Part shown: positions 2,659 to 6,404 of the stretch, in pieces
Layout of the letters: each line of letters opens with the position of its first letter
Position numbering within the stretch: the stretch's first letter is position 1
Origin: an uncultured Spirochaetota bacterium
GTDB taxonomy: Bacteria; Spirochaetota; Spirochaetia; SZUA-6; Fen-1364
DNA length: 18,494 bases
NCBI GenBank assembly: GCA_963745235.1
Contig: CAVUXE010000071.1
Span: forward strand, 1-18,494
Reading direction: 5' to 3'
Made by a program: the position numbers and the translations under genes
The notes under the pieces: generated by a model
Database searches by the model: none
The model's input: the letters and a program-made list of their open reading frames with translations, nothing else
Told to the model about the DNA's origin: nothing

Positions 2659-2864
2659 ATGGCGATCTATCATCTACACGTGCAGATCATATCTCGAAAG
2701 AACGGTCGCTCGGCTGTGGCCTGTGCGGCCTTCCGATCCGGAGACCGCCTCCGAGACGAACGCTATGGCGAGGTCCGAAACTACGCTCGCAATAACGGTT
2801 TCCTAGCCAAACGAACGCGGCAGAGCTACATCCTCTCACCCGATGGATCGCCGGAATGGACTAG
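2659..2864 (+). pseudogene. mobA: MobA/MobL (MOBQ) relaxase, 5' fragment, interrupted by IS1182
   Basis: MAIYHLHVQIISRKNGRSAVACAAFRSG is the typical MobA/MobL N-terminus. Homology stops at the CTAG at 2861-2864. Confidence 0.92.
2861..2864 (+). repeat. left target-site duplication (CTAG) of the IS1182
   Basis: CTAG is repeated at 5821-5824. Removing the insert plus one copy restores the relaxase frame (..PEWT-R-DREKLW..). Confidence 0.92.
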
Positions 2865-2951
2865 GAGCCTGTCGGACTTTGGCGGAAGGCGCGCGGGGGG
2901 GGCGGCATAGGGGGAATTCCGGAAATCCGCGCGGCATGGTAGGATTCAGGC

Positions 2952-4271
2952 ATGGCAGAGCGGCTGGTGAACGTGGATCGGGACACGCCGATGCTCCTTC
3001 CTGTGGATCTTCGTCAGTGGGTCCCCGAGGATGATTTGGTGCACTTTGTGATCAGCGCGGTGGATTCGATGAACCTCTCCAGCGTGTCGGTGAACACCCG
3101 CGGCAGCGGCAGCAAACAATATCCACCCCGAATGATGCTGGTGTTGCTGATCTATTGCTACTGCAACGGAGTCTTCGCCTCGCGGAGAATCGAGCGGGCA
3201 ACCTATCGTGACGTAGCGGTTCGCTACCTGAGCGGGGACACCCATCCCGATCACGACACCATCTGCGAGTTTCGTCGAGAGAACGGGAAGGTCGTCAAGG
3301 AAGCATTTGTTGAGGTTCTGCGCCTGGGGCGGCAGATGGGTCTGGTGAAGGTGGGGATGGTCAGCGTGGACGGGACGCACATCAAAGCGAACGCCTCCAA
3401 GCACAAGAGTGTGCGCTATGATCGGGCAGGGCAACTGGAAGAGCAATTGCGCAAGGACATAGAGGAGTTGTTGCAACGCGCGGCAAAAGCAGATGCGGAG
3501 CCTGCTGAGGATGGACAGAAGCTCCCCCCGGAGATAGCACGACGCGAAGCGCTTTTGGAAAAGATGCGCTGGGCTCGCGAGGAACTTCAGAAGCGAGCGA
3601 AGGACGAGGGTGAGAAGCAAGACGACAAGGACAAACCGCAAGGGCCGAAGTCAGGGGGTGAGAGTCCTGTGAAGCAGCCGAAGGACTCTCAGCAGATCAA
3701 CCTCACCGATCCCGATAGCGCCCTGATGCGCAAGAGCCGCCGCGACAGCTACGAACAGGCCTACAACGCGCAGGCGGTTGTGGACGCCGAGGGCAGCCAG
3801 TTGATCCTGGCCACCGATGTCATTGCCACTCCCAGCGACGCGAATCAGCTGGAGGTGGCCTTGCAGAACGTAGTGGAGTCGGTCGGACCTGTGCGGGGGA
3901 TGCTGGCAGACGGGGGCTATGTGAACGCCGAGGCGATTGAGCGCGTTCAGCAGAAGGTGGACCTCTACGTGGCGATCAGCAGTGAGGACAACAGCTATCG
4001 CCGCTACGACTACCGGCCGCCCAAGAAGCGGCCTGCCAAGAAGATCGTGGATCCGCGACTGATCGCCATGCGTGAGAAGGTGACATCTGATGAGGGCAAG
4101 CGCATCTATGGCAGGCGAGCTGCCAGCGTTGAACCTGTGTTCGGTATCATCAAGAGTGCGATGGGGCTGCGGCAGTTTCTGCTTCGCGGCATGGCCAAAG
4201 TGCGCATCGAGTGGGACTTGGCCTGCCTGGCGTACAACGTGAGGCGGCTCTGGAGCCTCTCGACTGCCTGA
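2952..4271 (+). CDS. IS1182-family DDE transposase
   Basis: 439 aa with DUF772-like N-terminus (LLPVDLRQWVPEDDL..YPPRMMLVLLIY..PDHDTI), VDGTHIKANAS, AYNAQAVVD, LADGGY and YGRRAASVEPVFGIIK. Confidence 0.93.
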   Translation: MAERLVNVDRDTPMLLPVDLRQWVPEDDLVHFVISAVDSMNLSSVSVNTRGSGSKQYPPRMMLVLLIYCYCNGVFASRRIERATYRDVAVRYLSGDTHPDHDTICEFRRENGKVVKEAFVEVLRLGRQMGLVKVGMVSVDGTHIKANASKHKSVRYDRAGQLEEQLRKDIEELLQRAAKADAEPAEDGQKLPPEIARREALLEKMRWAREELQKRAKDEGEKQDDKDKPQGPKSGGESPVKQPKDSQQINLTDPDSALMRKSRRDSYEQAYNAQAVVDAEGSQLILATDVIATPSDANQLEVALQNVVESVGPVRGMLADGGYVNAEAIERVQQKVDLYVAISSEDNSYRRYDYRPPKKRPAKKIVDPRLIAMREKVTSDEGKRIYGRRAASVEPVFGIIKSAMGLRQFLLRGMAKVRIEWDLACLAYNVRRLWSLSTA

Positions 4272-4415
4272 AGGCGGGCGAGGTGGGAAAGATCAGCCAA
4301 CGGGCTTTCGCGGGACCGACAGCCTCGCGACGGACAACGGGGCCAACCGCGCGGAAAATGCCCCGCCGTGGGCGCTCGGTGGCCGCTTGGCCACCGCCTC
4401 AGTCCGACAGGCTAC

Positions 4416-4425
4416 TATGATGCGC
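4416..4425 (+). repeat. IS110 sub-terminal inverted repeat (transposase 3' end)
   Basis: TATGATGCGC is the exact reverse complement of GCGCATCATA at 5804-5813. It lies 2 nt from the core. Confidence 0.88.
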
Positions 4426-4430
4426 GTCAA
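4425..4430 (-). promoter_or_regulatory. -35 half (TTGACG) of the IS110 circle-junction promoter
   Basis: In the excised circle the minus strand reads TTGACG-cgcatcatagt-AG-ttgt-TATGAT, a 17-nt spacer. Confidence 0.8.
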
Positions 4431-5524
4431 GCCGCCTCTTGGTTTCCCCCTTTCTTGATTTCCTTCGCATAGTCTCCGAGCTTCTTCTCATAGAGCCTCG
4501 GATCAATCCAGCGGTATAACTCGCGAGACAAGAGCATTCGGCGCATTATGGAGAAGGTCTTGCGCAGTAGAGCGATCCGCGCGCGCCCGTACCCTTTACG
4601 GTCAACCAACTCGCGGTAGAAACGAGCCAGCACAGGAGAGGAGTCCACGAGGTGGATCACCGTCTGGGTGAAGAGGCTGCGGGTTAGTCCTCGGCTACGT
4701 CGGTTGATCGCCCCGTTGTGTGTTACCCCGCCACTGGAGCGCACTGTAGGTACCACCCCCAAGTAGGAGTGTAGCCGCCGGGCGCTCCTGAACCTTGTGA
4801 TGTCTCCCACCTCCGAGAGGAAGGCCAAGGCCAACAAAGGGGTTACTCCGCGGATGCTGATGAGCAGCTTCACTTCGGCCTCAAACGGCCTGCCTGCCTG
4901 GTAGATCGCGCGTTTGAGATTTTCCTTCTGGTCCTGCAAGCTTGCCAGAAGTGCCAGGCTGGTTTTGATGCAGACACGACTTGCCGCGGAGAGCTCTACC
5001 GTCTTCAGAAGCTCCTCTGTTCCAGTAGGATTGTCCACAAGACGGTTTCCCAGCACTCGATCCCTTATCCCGTTGTCTAATAGAACCCCGTGAATCTCGT
5101 TCTTCAATTGACGGATCTGTTTGTTCAACAACTCGTACAGTCCGAAGTACCTTCTCAACTCCCGCACCACTGGTCCCGGCTGCCACACCTCCGGCAGCTT
5201 CATCTCTCCGCTGCGTGAGGCCAGCCACAACGCCAAGGACAGATTGGCCGCGTCCCGTTTGTCCGTCTTTTGCCAAGAGTCGCGGATGATACGGAAGCGG
5301 TAGGCGTCGATCACCGCGCAGCTCGCTCCCTGGTTCTGAATCTTCTCCGCCCAGTACAGCGCTCCGGCAGAGGCTTCCAGCACAACCGCGTCCTCGTTGC
5401 CCAGGCTCGCGACGTAGCCCTTGATATCCACCTGGGTCCGCACAAAACTCTCCTCCGTTCCTCCCTCGTCCCGTACGGAAATCGTTGCGTACTTCTTGTG
5501 CAGATCCACCCCGTAATACCTCAT
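4427..5524 (-). CDS. IS110-family transposase / DEDD recombinase (365 aa)
   Basis: The start is reassigned to the ATG at 5524 (GGAGGGGG RBS). RuvC-like DEDD motifs are YGVDLHK, VVLEAS and KTDKRDA. The Tnp20-type C-terminus reads IRGV..LSEVGDITRF..SYLGVVP.VRSSGG and includes the catalytic Ser. Confidence 0.95.
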   Translation of the reverse strand: MRYYGVDLHKKYATISVRDEGGTEESFVRTQVDIKGYVASLGNEDAVVLEASAGALYWAEKIQNQGASCAVIDAYRFRIIRDSWQKTDKRDAANLSLALWLASRSGEMKLPEVWQPGPVVRELRRYFGLYELLNKQIRQLKNEIHGVLLDNGIRDRVLGNRLVDNPTGTEELLKTVELSAASRVCIKTSLALLASLQDQKENLKRAIYQAGRPFEAEVKLLISIRGVTPLLALAFLSEVGDITRFRSARRLHSYLGVVPTVRSSGGVTHNGAINRRSRGLTRSLFTQTVIHLVDSSPVLARFYRELVDRKGYGRARIALLRKTFSIMRRMLLSRELYRWIDPRLYEKKLGDYAKEIKKGGNQEAA

Positions 5525-5568
5525 GTCCCCCTCCCTTCTCGAAACCCTCAGGGTCCAAACGAGGAGAC

Positions 5569-5801
5569 TTCCTGGAAGGCGCTGGTAACTCCATCCTACT
5601 ATCCAGCATCGCCAGTGGCGTGCTATTTTGTCGGTACGGAACGGCGGTGGGTGGCCTGCCAAACTCTTAGTCGTGGTCGCCGCTCGGGTGCCACAAGCCT
5701 ATAGAAGGCCATCTACCGTCCTCCTCTTGGGTCCCGGGTCTTCGAGGAATTCAGTATACAGCCACCAACCACTTGATCATCAACGCCTTCCGGGAACTGC
5801 A
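5569..5801 (-). ncRNA. putative bridge RNA (seekRNA) of the IS110 element
   Basis: Lies just downstream of the junction promoter. A long closing stem pairs 5796-5781 with 5584-5569. Two stem/internal-loop/stem domains carry loop segments matching the target (CTATAGGCT, CTAAGAG) and the donor junction (GACAA, ATAGTAG). Stems contain G-U pairs only when read on the minus strand. Folded by eye; the ends are approximate. Confidence 0.75.
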
Positions 5802-5803
5802 AG

Positions 5804-5813
5804 GCGCATCATA
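5804..5813 (-). promoter_or_regulatory. IS110 sub-terminal inverted repeat containing the -10 box (TATGAT, 5813-5808) of the junction promoter
   Basis: The minus strand reads TATGATGCGC, 4 nt from the core. It pairs with the -35 at 4430-4425 only after circularisation. Confidence 0.82.
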
Positions 5814-5820
5814 ACAACTC

Positions 5821-5824
5821 CTAG
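5821..5824 (+). repeat. right target-site duplication (CTAG) of the IS1182
   Basis: Identical to 2861-2864 and follows the last base of the reconstructed IRR. Confidence 0.92.
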
Positions 5825-6404
5825 GGATCGGGAAAAGCTCTGGAATCAGGTCGAAATATCCGAAAAGCGCGTCGACTCGCAGCTTGCTCGTCAGTATGAT
5901 ATTGCCCTGCCTATCAGGCTGACCAACGATCAGCAGAAAGCTCTTATCGACGAATTTGCCATACAGGAGTTTGTTTCGCGCGGCATGATTGCCGACGTGT
6001 CCATTCATGACGGCGCGAAAGGCCCTACAGAGAATCCTCACGCCATCATCATGCTCACCACCAGAGAAATCAGACCCCTGGGCTTTGGCAAGAAGGTCAT
6101 GGAGTGGCATGATAGAACGCTTCTCCTTGAAGCTAGGCAGCAGTGGGCGAAGATCGCCAACAGACACATGGAGCTTGCCAGCCTTAAGGATCGAATCGAC
6201 CACAGATCACTCGAGGCCCAGGGAATCGAGCGCCAGCCAGCGGCACATCTGGGGCCGCGTCGGACACGTCTTATTCGCCAGATCGAGCTGCACTTGAAGA
6301 CTATCGAGGATACGATCGAGGCGGAACGCCGAAAGGAAGATCCATTTCTTCCCGACCTCGATACTATGCTAACCGAACTAGAAGCGCAGATCGATCAGCT
6401 CTGA
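5825..6404 (+). pseudogene. mobA: MobA/MobL relaxase, 3' fragment
   Basis: DREKLWNQVEISEKRVDSQLAR..IALP..GMIADVSIHD..NPHAIIMLTTR..RQQWA..N..RIDHRSLEAQGI..HLGP are MobA/MobL motifs. The fragment joins 2659-2864 in frame to give 261 aa. Confidence 0.92.

What the first reader, a model, noticed from the sequence alone, without database searches (positions are those of the whole stretch)
5525..5817. Structured non-coding end of the IS110: candidate bridge RNA with loops matching both target and donor DNA
Seen in sequence (minus strand): a closing stem TTCCcGGAAGGCGTTG / CAGCGCCTTCCaGGAA (5796-5781 with 5584-5569) encloses a small hairpin and two stem-loop-stem domains. Domain 1 has outer stem TGGCCT/AGGCCA and inner stem TTGTGG/CCACGA. 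It exposes CTATAGGCT (5704-5696), which matches the left target plus core CGACAGGCT at 7/9 with one G-U-compatible difference. It also exposes CTAAGAG (5670-5664), which matches the reverse complement of core plus right target, CTAGGAG, at 6/7. Domain 2 has outer stem CCGTTC/GGATGG and inner stem TAGCA-CGCC/GGCG-a-TGCTG. It carries ATAGTAG (5602-5596), the exact reverse complement of the junction CT-ACTAT, and more weakly GACAA versus the donor arm AACAA. G-U pairs occur only in the minus-strand reading, the same strand as the junction promoter. Established: IS110 recombinases such as IS621 use a bispecific bridge RNA with target- and donor-binding loops. Inference: this is a complete, potentially reprogrammable RNA-guided recombinase system with both substrates readable from this window.
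Basis: partly seen in the sequence, partly recalled or inferred. Interest (0 to 1): 0.92.

Follow-up and report, generated by a model that had tools for sequence, protein, structure and literature searches.

The report
Bridge RNA of an IS1111-like element
The non-coding left end of this insertion sequence encodes a two-loop guide RNA whose loop letters change together with the insertion sites and element ends in dozens of relatives, so it is a natural RNA-guided recombinase of a known kind in an unusual layout.

Summary
All five strings sit exactly at the stated coordinates.

In 46 distinct homologous left ends the scaffold helices are conserved and covary. The four loop strands are hypervariable.
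- The 3' strand of loop 1 equals the left flank plus core: 4.44 of 6 non-core letters against 1.91 in shuffles, 0 of 20000.
- The 5' strand of loop 1 is the reverse complement of core plus right flank: 4.97 of 7 against 2.63, 0 of 20000.
- The strands of loop 2 track the two element ends and the core.

An empty copy of the target lies in the window at 2861-2878. It is the other terminal repeat of an IS1182-family element.

Refinements:
- The ends (10-bp subterminal inverted repeat, 7/3-bp extensions) and the guide order are those of the IS1111 group, not of IS621, yet the RNA lies upstream of the transposase.
- The G-U strand argument holds only as a majority.
- The donor guide of this copy does not pair with the core.
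- RNA ends and activity are untested.

Verdict: a new variant of a known kind, of moderate interest.

The parts
4414..5817 (-). The insertion sequence, 1404 bp without the core copy. A core AG flanks it on both sides.
   Evidence: An identical second copy lies on contig C58 and an 83% copy on C30. The flanks diverge outside these limits. An empty site is in the window.
5818..5824 (-). Left target half CTAGG plus core AG (5819-5818).
   Evidence: It equals the 3' strand of loop 1 at 6 of 7. The same relation holds in the relatives.
4405..4413 (-). Core AG (4413-4412) plus right target half CCTGTCG. This is the tip of the terminal inverted repeat of the IS1182-family element.
   Evidence: It is the reverse complement of the 5' strand of loop 1 at 7 of 9. 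The same site is used by the C58 copy and by L028.
5813..5817 (-). Terminal pentamer TTGTT of the left end, the donor arm.
   Evidence: It pairs with GACAA of loop 2, using one G-T wobble. The pentamer covaries with the loop in 12 distinct combinations.
5804..5813 (-). Left subterminal inverted repeat TATGATGCGC. It contains the -10-like hexamer TATGAT (5813-5808).
   Evidence: It is the inverse of GCGCATCATA at 4425-4416 and is nearly invariant in 46 left ends.
5781..5796 (-). 5' strand of the closing stem.
   Evidence: It pairs with 5584-5569. Four of 12 pairs show changes on both sides. The stem is reproduced in the minimum-energy fold.
5721..5749 (-). Small 5' hairpin, TTCCTC (5749-5744) with GAGGAG (5726-5721).
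   Evidence: 91.8% of cells are paired and one pair shows a change on both sides. RNAalifold instead pairs TCCTC with the ribosome-binding site, so this helix is the least certain.
5645..5718 (-). Loop-1 (target-binding) domain. The outer stem is 5718-5706 with 5657-5645. The inner stem is 5696-5690 with 5678-5671.
   Evidence: RNAalifold finds the domain. In the outer stem 98.8% of cells are paired, and one pair is U-A in 31 sequences and G-C in 12.
5696..5704 (-). 5' guide of loop 1, CTATAGGCT. It pairs with the transposase-sense strand of core plus right flank.
   Evidence: Relatives give 4.97 of 7 non-core letters against 2.63 +/- 0.19 in shuffles. L011, with the same guide, sits in a 9 of 9 site.
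5664..5670 (-). 3' guide of loop 1, CTAAGAG. It has the same sense as left flank plus core.
   Evidence: Relatives give 4.44 of 6 against 1.91 +/- 0.19 in shuffles. L025, with the same 3' guide, has a 7 of 7 flank.
5591..5644 (-). Loop-2 (donor-binding) domain. The outer stem is CCGTT (5644-5640) with GATGG (5595-5591). The inner stem is 5625-5617 with 5613-5604.
   Evidence: The domain folds this way on its own at -20.6 kcal/mol, z -3.52. Five of 9 inner-stem pairs show changes on both sides.
5626..5632 (-). 5' strand of loop 2, GACAAAA. GACAA pairs with the left-end pentamer. The next two letters (AA) do not pair with the core.
5596..5602 (-). 3' strand of loop 2, ATAGTAG. It is identical to the right end plus core.
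   Evidence: Exact in the window. It changes with the right end and the core in distant relatives, to ATAGTAC, ATAGTAT and ATAGCAC.
4427..5524 (-). Transposase gene, 365 aa plus stop. The ribosome-binding site GGGAGGGGG is at 5535-5527.
   Evidence: NCBIfam NF033542 'IS110 family RNA-guided transposase' scores 180.6 bits against a cut-off of 140. Pfam PF02371 gives 9.5e-18.
4414..4430 (-). Right end: the -35-like hexamer TTGACG (4430-4425, overlapping the stop codon), the subterminal repeat GCGCATCATA (4425-4416, its last A shared with AGT) and the 3-bp extension AGT (4416-4414).
   Evidence: The outermost right-end copy is nearly invariant in all relatives where it could be read.
2861..2878 (+). 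Unoccupied copy of the target, CTAGG-AG-CCTGTCGGACT, at the other end of the IS1182-family element.
2952..4271 (+). IS1182-family transposase gene of the element whose terminal repeat is the target.
   Evidence: NCBIfam NF033551 scores 338.2 bits against a cut-off of 270. Pfam gives PF01609, PF13751 and PF05598.

Best explanation
Window 5817-4414 (minus strand) is a 1.4-kb member of the IS110 family in the wide sense. Its 293-nt left end encodes a bridge RNA (seekRNA) of about 235 nt, read in the same sense as the transposase.

Shown by sequence and comparison:
- A long closing stem encloses a 5' part and two stem / internal-loop / stem domains.
- In loop 1 the 9-nt 5' strand is complementary to the transposase-sense strand of core plus right flank. 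The 7-nt 3' strand is identical to left flank plus core, so it would pair with the other strand.
- In loop 2 the 3' strand is identical to the right end plus core. The 5' strand is complementary to the first five letters of the left end.
- The core is AG in this sense (CT on the plus strand). It is read by both 3' strands and by the 5' strand of loop 1.

Inferred by analogy with IS621 and ISEc11:
- The element excises as a circle.
- The abutted ends form a promoter. The -35 hexamer TTGACG lies in the right end and the -10 hexamer TATGAT in the left end. The 17-nt spacer consists of 11 right-end letters, the core and 4 left-end letters.
- The RNA, and probably the transposase message behind it, is transcribed from this promoter.
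- Transposase bound to the two loops brings the circle junction and the target together and exchanges strands at the core, leaving no duplication.

The guides specify CTAAG-AG-CCTATAG. Here the element sits in a near-match, the tip of the terminal repeat of an IS1182-family element.
For: Family and activity:
- The protein passes NCBIfam NF033542.
- There are two identical copies at different sites in this genome.
- Near-identical copies lie at other sites in other assemblies: L011, L023 and L025.

Structure, tested on 46 distinct left ends:
- 93.4% of 2433 cells are paired, against 37-58% when the partners are slid.
- 13 pairs show changes on both sides, against 6.8 +/- 1.4 in shuffles (0 of 500).
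- 52 such cells are seen, against 15.1 in shuffles.

Target guides:
- Left: 39 distinct guide/flank pairs give 4.44 of 6 against 1.91 +/- 0.19 (0 of 20000).
- Left, one insertion per distinct guide (26): 4.69 against 1.90.
- Right: 37 pairs give 4.97 of 7 against 2.63 +/- 0.19 (0 of 20000).
- Right, 28 distinct guides: 5.0 against 2.60.
- Perfect 9 of 9 sites are seen in L011, L024, L061, L047 and L050-L053. L064 is perfect over 10 letters.

Donor guides:
- The pentamer of loop 2 and the left-end pentamer agree at 4.42 of 5 against 3.63 +/- 0.17 (1 of 20000), in 12 distinct combinations.
- There are compensating changes at four of the five positions.

Core: it equals the last two letters of both 3' strands in 56 of 57 insertions (AG 46, AC 7, AT 3).

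Strand:
- G-U cells 295 against A-C cells 104.
- The core complement lies at the 3' end of each guide, as in ISEc11.
- The promoter halves point this way.

Weak support for transcription: contigs of two metatranscriptome runs of one study cover 5401-5633 and 5740-5825.
Against: - No transcript start, end or strand is shown. The RNA-library evidence is contigs only and could be carried-over DNA.
- The whole-region fold is only marginally better than shuffles (z -1.86). Its minimum-energy form pairs part of the loop-1 domain differently.
- Folded alone, the loop-1 domain is more stable as the antisense strand: -36.0 kcal/mol (z -3.76) against -26.1 (z -1.37).
- Two conserved A-C positions in its outer stem would be G-U in antisense.
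- In this copy the guides mismatch the present site at 1 of 7 and 2 of 9 letters. The 5' strand of loop 2 has AA where the core complement would be.
- Across relatives those two letters vary freely.
- Several insertions fit their right flank poorly: L016, L042 and L066 at 2 of 7, L015 at 2 of 7 unless a 1-nt offset is allowed, L031 at 3 of 7, and C58 at 1 of 7 as read.
- Rfam 15 has no match.
- No promoter-like site is found on this strand in the integrated copy.
Confidence: 0.86

Rival explanations
1. The RNA guides target choice only, as a seekRNA in the narrow sense. The donor ends are recognised by the transposase through the 10-bp subterminal inverted repeats. The matches of loop 2 to the ends are then conserved scaffold, not functional pairing.
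For: - The ends carry long subterminal repeats, as in IS1111-family elements. Siddiquee et al. suggest that end recognition may differ in that family (passages).
- The 3' strand of loop 2 and the right end are both almost invariant, so most of that match cannot covary.
- The core positions of the 5' strand of loop 2 vary freely and often mismatch.
Against: - Where the ends do vary, loop 2 follows. The left-end pentamers TTGAT, TTGGT, TCGTT, TTTTT and TTGTC go with ATCAA, ACCAA, GACGA, AAAAA and GACAA.
- The right-end variants ATAGCAC and ATAGTAC go with the same letters in the loop.
- Only 1 of 20000 shuffles reaches the observed agreement.
Confidence: 0.07
2. The functional transcript is the antisense (plus) strand of the left end, for instance an antisense regulator of the transposase.
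For: - The loop-1 domain folds better as antisense when taken alone.
- Two conserved A-C positions would be G-U in antisense.
- Contigs cannot tell the strand.
Against: - G-U cells outnumber A-C cells 295 to 104, and by pairs 27 to 11.
- The loop-2 domain folds better in sense: z -3.52 against -1.18.
- In antisense the core letters would lie at the 5' ends of the guides, unlike ISEc11 and IS621.
- The promoter halves formed by the joined ends point in the sense direction.
Confidence: 0.03
3. The left end is only a structured leader that controls translation of the transposase. The likeness of the loops to the flanks would then be coincidence or a by-product of site preference set by the protein.
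For: - Anti-Shine-Dalgarno-like stretches (CUCCUC at 5566-5561 and UCCUC in the small hairpin) can pair with the ribosome-binding site.
- In the window alone the target matches are at chance frequency.
Against: - At least 26 different guide sets on one scaffold each fit their own flanks.
- Agreement stops sharply at 9 and at 7 letters.
- A leader function does not exclude the guide function.
Confidence: 0.02

Closest known systems
IS621 bridge RNA with its recombinase (Durrant et al. 2024, PMC11208160: passages and section 12 read; Hiraizumi et al. 2024: search listing and abstract only)
   Same: - The RNA is encoded in the long left end, upstream of a DEDD transposase.
- The promoter is split between the right and left ends.
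- The first internal loop binds the target and the second binds the donor.
- The 5' guide is about 9 nt and the 3' guide 4-7 nt.
- The core dinucleotide is read by the guides. The 5' guides end in CU and the 3' guides in AG.
- There is no target duplication.
   Different: - The protein is only marginally similar. A profile search gives E 0.021 to 8wt6, over the C-terminal part only. A single-sequence search finds nothing.
- On the RNA-sense strand the junction reads right end-AG-left end. In IS621 it reads right end-CT-left end.
- So here the 5' guide binds the top strand on the right and the 3' guide the bottom strand on the left. Tested in the IS621 order, the guides agree with the flanks only at 2.79 of 7 and 1.41 of 6. 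That is near the shuffled means of the corresponding tests in the observed order, 2.63 of 7 and 1.91 of 6; no shuffle was run for this order itself.
- The subterminal repeat is 10 bp here and 2-3 bp in IS621.
- A long closing stem encloses both loops.
ISEc11 and other IS1111-family elements with their seekRNA (Siddiquee et al. 2024, PMC11187229: abstract and passages)
   Same: - Subterminal inverted repeats are present.
- The terminal extensions are 7 bp on the left (core included) and 3 bp on the right.
- The guide complementary to the top strand precedes the guide that matches it. I checked this on an ISEc11 copy (L087). There CAGTATTT, the reverse complement of the right flank, lies 5' of GTGAAAAT, the left flank.
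- The transposase aligns over its full length: 26% identity, E 3e-16.
   Different: - In ISEc11 the non-coding region and its RNA lie downstream of the transposase gene. Here they lie upstream, and the right end is only 17 bp.
- The repeat is 10 bp here and 11-13 bp in that family.
- A clear second loop matching both ends is present here. I did not examine donor pairing in ISEc11.
ISMtsp17, and the 'few' IS1111-family elements with an upstream non-coding region (Siddiquee et al. 2024: one passage)
   Same: IS1111-type ends combined with an upstream long non-coding region.
   Different: The passage only mentions them as exceptions. I saw no RNA, guides or targets described. Their relation to this Spirochaetota lineage was not tested, because the sequence is not held and the supplements are closed.
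IS4321 / IS5075 (Partridge and Hall 2003: title seen only in the reference list of PMC11208160)
   Same: IS1111-family elements that insert into the terminal inverted repeats of another transposon.
   Different: Their targets are the repeats of Tn21-family transposons. Here the target is the tip of an IS1182-family terminal repeat. Nothing else was compared.

Membership tests
IS110 family in the wide sense (DEDD transposases) | The transposase matches the curated family model. | tested here: met
   NCBIfam NF033542 scores 180.6 bits against a cut-off of 140. Pfam PF02371 scores 64.8 bits against a cut-off of 21.3. Pfam PF01548 scores 24.9 bits, below its cut-off of 29.
IS110 family in the wide sense (DEDD transposases) | Catalytic DEDD residues and the C-terminal serine. 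| tested here: inconclusive
   In the pairwise alignment with the ISEc11 transposase, GVD, (L/M)EA, the D..D stretch and SGG line up. No structure or curated residue list was used.
IS110 family in the wide sense (DEDD transposases) | Site-specific insertion without target duplication. | tested here: met
   The empty site at 2861-2878 equals left flank plus one core plus right flank of the occupied site.
Bridge RNA / seekRNA | Encoded in the long non-coding end on the transposase-sense strand. | tested here: met
   The left end is 293 nt and the right end 17 bp. The strand follows from the G-U majority and the guide architecture. No strand-specific RNA data exist.
Bridge RNA / seekRNA | Conserved secondary structure with internal loops. 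| tested here: met
   93.4% of cells paired. 13 pairs show changes on both sides, against 6.8 +/- 1.4 in shuffles (0 of 500).
Bridge RNA / seekRNA | The strands of one loop covary with the two halves of the target. | tested here: met
   0 of 20000 shuffles reach the observed agreement, for either half; guide lengths of 9 and 7 letters.
Bridge RNA / seekRNA | The strands of a second loop match the two element ends. | tested here: met
   The 3' strand matches at 7 of 7. The 5' strand covers 5 letters, with covariation.
Bridge RNA / seekRNA | [quoted passage not shown] | tested here: not met
   Met for three strands: 56 of 57 insertions for the two 3' strands, and 35 of 38 for the 5' strand of loop 1. 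The core positions of the 5' strand of loop 2 read AA here and vary among relatives.
Bridge RNA / seekRNA | A promoter is formed by joining the ends. | tested here: met
   Read from the sequence: TTGACG at 4430-4425 and TATGAT at 5813-5808 would be 17 nt apart after joining. Activity was not tested.
Bridge RNA / seekRNA | The RNA is made, binds the transposase and is required for recombination. | not testable with these tools
   The only data are two contigs from RNA libraries of one study, over parts of the left end.
IS1111 group | Subterminal inverted repeats of about 7-17 bp. | tested here: met
   TATGATGCGC at 5813-5804 and GCGCATCATA at 4425-4416, 10 bp.
IS1111 group | Terminal extensions of 7 bp (left) and 3 bp (right). 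| tested here: met
   Taking the 9-bp repeat ATGATGCGC, the left extension is AG+TTGTT and the right extension is AGT.
IS1111 group | The guide complementary to the top strand lies 5' of the bottom-strand guide. | tested here: met
   The control on ISEc11 gives the same order.
IS1111 group | The long non-coding region lies downstream of the transposase gene. | tested here: not met
   Here it lies upstream. Only 17 bp follow the last sense codon. Some relatives (L012, L013, L015, L016) have in addition about 270 nt downstream.
IS110 group in the narrow sense (IS621-like) | The long non-coding region lies upstream. | tested here: met
IS110 group in the narrow sense (IS621-like) | The subterminal repeat is absent or only 2-3 bp. 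| tested here: not met
   The repeat is 10 bp.
IS110 group in the narrow sense (IS621-like) | The 5' guide equals the left target (bottom-strand pairing) and the 3' guide binds the top strand on the right. | tested here: not met
   In that orientation the agreement is 2.79 of 7 and 1.41 of 6. That is near the shuffled means of the corresponding tests in the observed order, 2.63 of 7 and 1.91 of 6.

The most novel reading that the evidence does not exclude
This Spirochaetota lineage may be a third layout within the RNA-guided DEDD recombinases.
- Its donor geometry and guide order are IS1111-type.
- Its RNA is an IS621-like two-loop bridge RNA placed upstream and clamped by a long closing stem.
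- Pairing of the donor guide with the core would be dispensable.

It would then be a living intermediate of the proposed move of the RNA gene between the two ends. It would also be a compact scaffold orthogonal to IS621, with at least 26 naturally reprogrammed guide sets.
Probability: 0.35. Interest if true: 0.62.

Novelty: new variant of a known kind. Interest (0 to 1): 0.5.

Why it matters
RNA-guided DEDD recombinases are being developed as genome-writing tools, and most mechanistic work rests on IS621 and a few relatives.

This lineage is far from IS621. A sequence profile search against solved structures gives only E 0.02. Even so, natural variation alone already shows which letters are programmable:
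- 9 and 7 letters for the target.
- 5 and 7 letters for the donor.
- The core can be AG, AC or AT.

The lineage combines features used to separate the IS110 and IS1111 groups. That bears on how the RNA gene changed ends during evolution, and on whether the two groups differ in mechanism.

In this genome the element parasitises the terminal repeat of another insertion sequence, and an unused copy of the site lies 1.5 kb away.

Tried and rejected
**Searches that found nothing**
- Rfam 15 over 4300-6000 at E up to 10: no match. The RNA therefore belongs to no curated family in that library.
- Single-sequence search of solved structures: nothing at E 0.01. Only a profile reached IS621 and ISCro4, marginally.
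- Promoter and terminator scan of the integrated copy: no site on the minus strand and no terminator. This fits a promoter that exists only after the ends are joined, but it does not prove that.

**First readings that I corrected**
- I first took the right end of the 83% copy on C30 to follow the stop codon directly. Alignment of the relatives showed that this is a degenerate internal copy. The true right end lies about 270 nt further on in L012, L013, L015 and L016, and about 1.4 kb further on in C30.
- I considered that the conserved GGTGGC (5767-5762) pairs with GCCACC of the loop-1 outer stem, as the minimum-energy fold has it. I rejected this. Relatives with GGCGGC keep the invariant A opposite, and the other pairing carries the covariation.
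- In the IS621 order (5' guide equal to the left flank) the agreement is near the shuffled means of the tests in the observed order.

**Expression**
- Of three metatranscriptome runs laid, X3 gave nothing. X1 and X2 each gave one contig covering part of the left end.
- Parts without cover mean nothing, and no start, end, strand or level can be read from contigs.

**Limits of what I could see**
- The supplements of Durrant et al. (predicted bridge RNAs for ISfinder elements) and of Siddiquee et al. (the full tree) may already hold relatives with this layout. I could not see them.
- No literature search was made specifically for 'IS1111 with upstream RNA'. The statement that such elements are only mentioned as exceptions rests on two searches and on the passages.

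**Rows dropped before counts**
- One search removed 9 loci with left ends identical to another locus and 1 locus with an N.
- Loci without a readable left end or right end were left out of the respective test.
- In alignment A3 the row for L003 is cut at its 5' end. That was a coordinate slip of mine.
Full report
**What is in the window**

On the minus strand an open frame of 365 codons runs from ATG 5524 to TGA 4429-4427, behind a strong ribosome-binding site.
- It passes the NCBIfam model 'IS110 family RNA-guided transposase' at 180.6 bits, cut-off 140.
- It passes Pfam PF02371. PF01548 stays below its cut-off.
- Upstream lie 293 non-coding bases (5817-5525). Downstream only 17 bp remain before the element ends.

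The limits are set by three comparisons.
- A second, identical copy on contig C58 and an 83% copy on C30 lose similarity outside these points.
- The window itself holds an unoccupied site at 2861-2878 (plus strand). It equals left flank, one core and right flank of the occupied site.
- Insertion therefore leaves no duplication. It takes place at a core AG in the transposase sense, which is CT on the plus strand.

The site is the tip of the terminal inverted repeat of an IS1182-family element, NF033551 at 338 bits.
- The window copy sits at one end of that element and the empty site is the other end.
- The C58 copy sits at the end of a second IS1182-family copy.
- A metagenome relative with a slightly different guide (L028) has the same right flank.

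**The observation**

Taken alone the window is weak evidence.
- Matches of 7/9 and 6/7 to the target halves are as common as in shuffled sequence.
- Only the 7-letter identity to the right end is rare: 3 found against 0.47 expected. One of the three is an unrelated chance copy at 9-15.
- The fold of the whole region is only marginally better than shuffles, z -1.86.

**Relatives**

- A scan of one genome per species gave 12 loci. Eleven are from Spirochaetota assemblies. The twelfth, L019, is a 52%-identical partial match in an Acidobacteriota assembly.
- A scan of metagenome contigs gave 64 loci at 27-100% protein identity.
- After removing identical left ends, 46 distinct left ends were aligned. 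One row is cut at its 5' end by my slip.
- The scaffold is conserved, while four short stretches are hypervariable.

**Structure**

RNAalifold recovers the loop-1 domain and the inner stem of loop 2.

- 93.4% of 2433 cells are paired, against 37-58% for slid partners.
- 13 pairs show changes on both sides, against 6.8 +/- 1.4 in shuffles (0 of 500).
- 52 such cells are seen, against 15.1 in shuffles.
- The closing stem has 4 such pairs. The inner stem of loop 2 has 5.
- One pair of the loop-1 outer stem is U-A in 31 sequences and G-C in 12.
- The small 5' hairpin and the outer stem of loop 2 are the least certain helices.

**Target guides**

Each guide was compared with the flanks of its own insertion.
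- The 3' strand of loop 1 equals the left flank at 4.44 of 6 non-core letters, in 39 distinct guide/flank pairs. The distribution is 6:4, 5:18, 4:10, 3:5 and 2:2.
- Shuffled pairings give 1.91 +/- 0.19, and 0 of 20000 reach the observed mean.
- The reverse complement of the 5' strand equals the right flank at 4.97 of 7, in 37 pairs. The distribution is 7:7, 6:9, 5:9, 4:6, 3:1, 2:4 and 1:1.
- Shuffled pairings give 2.63 +/- 0.19, again 0 of 20000.
- One insertion per distinct guide gives the same result, with 26 and 28 guides.

Agreement ends sharply.
- On the left, positions -1 to -7 agree in 32-44 of 44 insertions, and position -8 in 7.
- On the right, positions 1 to 9 agree in 23-35 of 38, and position 10 in 5.

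L011 carries the window's own 5' guide and sits in a perfect 9 of 9 site. L025 carries the same 3' guide and has a perfect 7 of 7 left flank. The window's site is thus a near-match, at 6 of 7 and 7 of 9.

Some insertions fit poorly: L016, L042, L066, L031, L015 unless a 1-nt offset is allowed, and C58 as read. In some subfamilies the 5' guide sits one letter further 3'. The test allowed both registers, for real and shuffled pairs alike.

**Donor guides and core**

- The 3' strand of loop 2 is identical to the right end plus core, at 7 of 7. It changes with them in distant relatives, to ATAGTAC, ATAGTAT and ATAGCAC.
- The 5' strand carries the complement of the first five letters of the left end. 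In 12 distinct combinations agreement is 4.42 of 5 against 3.63 +/- 0.17 in shuffles (1 of 20000). Compensating changes occur at four positions.
- The core at the left junction equals the last two letters of both 3' strands in 56 of 57 insertions: AG 46, AC 7, AT 3.
- The two letters of the 5' strand of loop 2 that should face the core vary freely. They read AA in the window copy. This is the one point where the IS621 scheme is not met.

**Strand and transcription**

- Sense G-U cells outnumber A-C cells 295 to 104, and by pairs 27 to 11.
- Two conserved A-C positions in the loop-1 outer stem would be G-U on the other strand.
- Folded alone, the loop-1 domain is more stable as antisense. The loop-2 domain is more stable in sense.
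- The guide architecture argues for the sense strand, because the core letters lie at the 3' end of each guide, as in ISEc11.
- So does the split promoter. The hexamer TTGACG (4430-4425) overlaps the stop codon, and TATGAT lies at 5813-5808. After joining of the ends they would be 17 nt apart. A start about 7 nt behind the -10 hexamer would fall just before the closing stem. This is my inference.
- The integrated copy has no promoter-like site on this strand.
- Two metatranscriptome runs of one study hold contigs over 5401-5633 and 5740-5825. The second runs on into a different flank behind the same 7-letter left half-site. This shows presence in RNA libraries, not a defined RNA.

**Comparison with what is known**

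According to Durrant et al., IS621 reads right end-CT-left end on the RNA-sense strand. Its 5' guides pair with the bottom strand on the left. Here the RNA-sense strand reads right end-AG-left end, and the 5' guides pair with the top strand on the right. In the IS621 order the agreement is near the shuffled means of the tests in the observed order.

According to Siddiquee et al., exactly this reversed order marks the IS1111 family. So do subterminal inverted repeats and terminal extensions of 7 and 3 bp. All three features are met here.

As a control I read an annotated ISEc11 copy, L087. The reverse complement of its right flank lies 5' of a copy of its left flank in its downstream non-coding region. 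That is the same order as here.

The transposase also aligns over its full length with that of ISEc11, at 26% identity and E 3e-16. IS621 is reached only marginally, by a profile.

In the IS1111 family, however, the RNA lies downstream of the gene. Here it lies upstream. The same paper notes such cases only as exceptions, naming ISMtsp17. The element thus fails one defining feature of each of the two groups. Even so, it appears to work like both.

**Verdict**

This is a bridge or seek RNA with its recombinase, and donor and target are both readable in the window. The kind is known, and thousands have been predicted. The layout is a variant, and the lineage is far from the studied ones. RNA ends, protein binding and recombination remain untested.

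Noticed in passing
G000 contig C30:9397-9545 (locus L003/L008-L010); L023:1380-1480; L012, L016, L059: The short right end is often repeated in tandem.
- Counts: L023 x3 (24-nt units), L012 x2, L016 x2, L059 x2 (14-nt units), C30 and L014 x3 with re-started host sequence between the copies.
- Every unit boundary follows the element's own core dinucleotide.
- In L023 the letters before the first unit (CCAAGAG) match the 3' guide of loop 1 at 6 of 7.
- This fits the 'half-match' recombination and tandem expansion described in two 2026 preprints.
   Followed up: partly
G000 contig C30:6754-9545 (L003) and L014; L012, L013, L015, L016: Relatives at 83-85% identity carry a degenerate internal copy of the right end directly after the stop codon. 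Extra DNA follows before the true right end. It is about 270 nt with a long hairpin in L012, L013, L015 and L016. In C30 and L014 it is about 1.4 kb with a repeat-rich open frame. These are small cargo-carrying forms.
   Followed up: partly
G000 contig C58:53397-53420 and C58:51870-51890; L037 against L032: An extra TAG appears at some junctions.
- It lies between the right end and the flank in the C58 copy.
- It lies between the flank and the left end in L037, compared with the same site in L032.
- The unoccupied other end of the C58 IS1182-family copy also reads GAG-TAG-CCTGTCGG, where the window copy reads GAG-CCTGTCGG.
- Possible causes are slippage in the TAGTAG run, recombination at the neighbouring AG, or a footprint of excision. 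This is not resolved.
   Followed up: partly
window 5527-5566 and 5744-5749: Two CUCCUC-like stretches can pair with the ribosome-binding site GGGAGGGGG of the transposase. One lies just behind the closing stem and one in the small 5' hairpin. Translation may be masked in the long transcript.
   Followed up: no
L050-L052 (metagenome contigs): In this subfamily both 3' guides end in AU and the left junction reads AT. The 5' guide of loop 1 ends in GU, and the right junction reads AC in two loci and AT in one. This looks like a core read with a G-U wobble, or a mixed core after recombination.
   Followed up: no
window 5645-5718: Two A-C oppositions in the outer stem of loop 1 are conserved. Columns 125/202 are A-C in 43 of 46 sequences. 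Columns 123/204 are A-C in 19 of 46, with mostly A-U elsewhere (my reading of the alignment). They may be a recognition feature for the protein.
   Followed up: no
G000 contig C11 (L004-L006): Fragments of further diverged copies of the same element (72-83% identity) lie on contig C11 of this genome.
   Followed up: no
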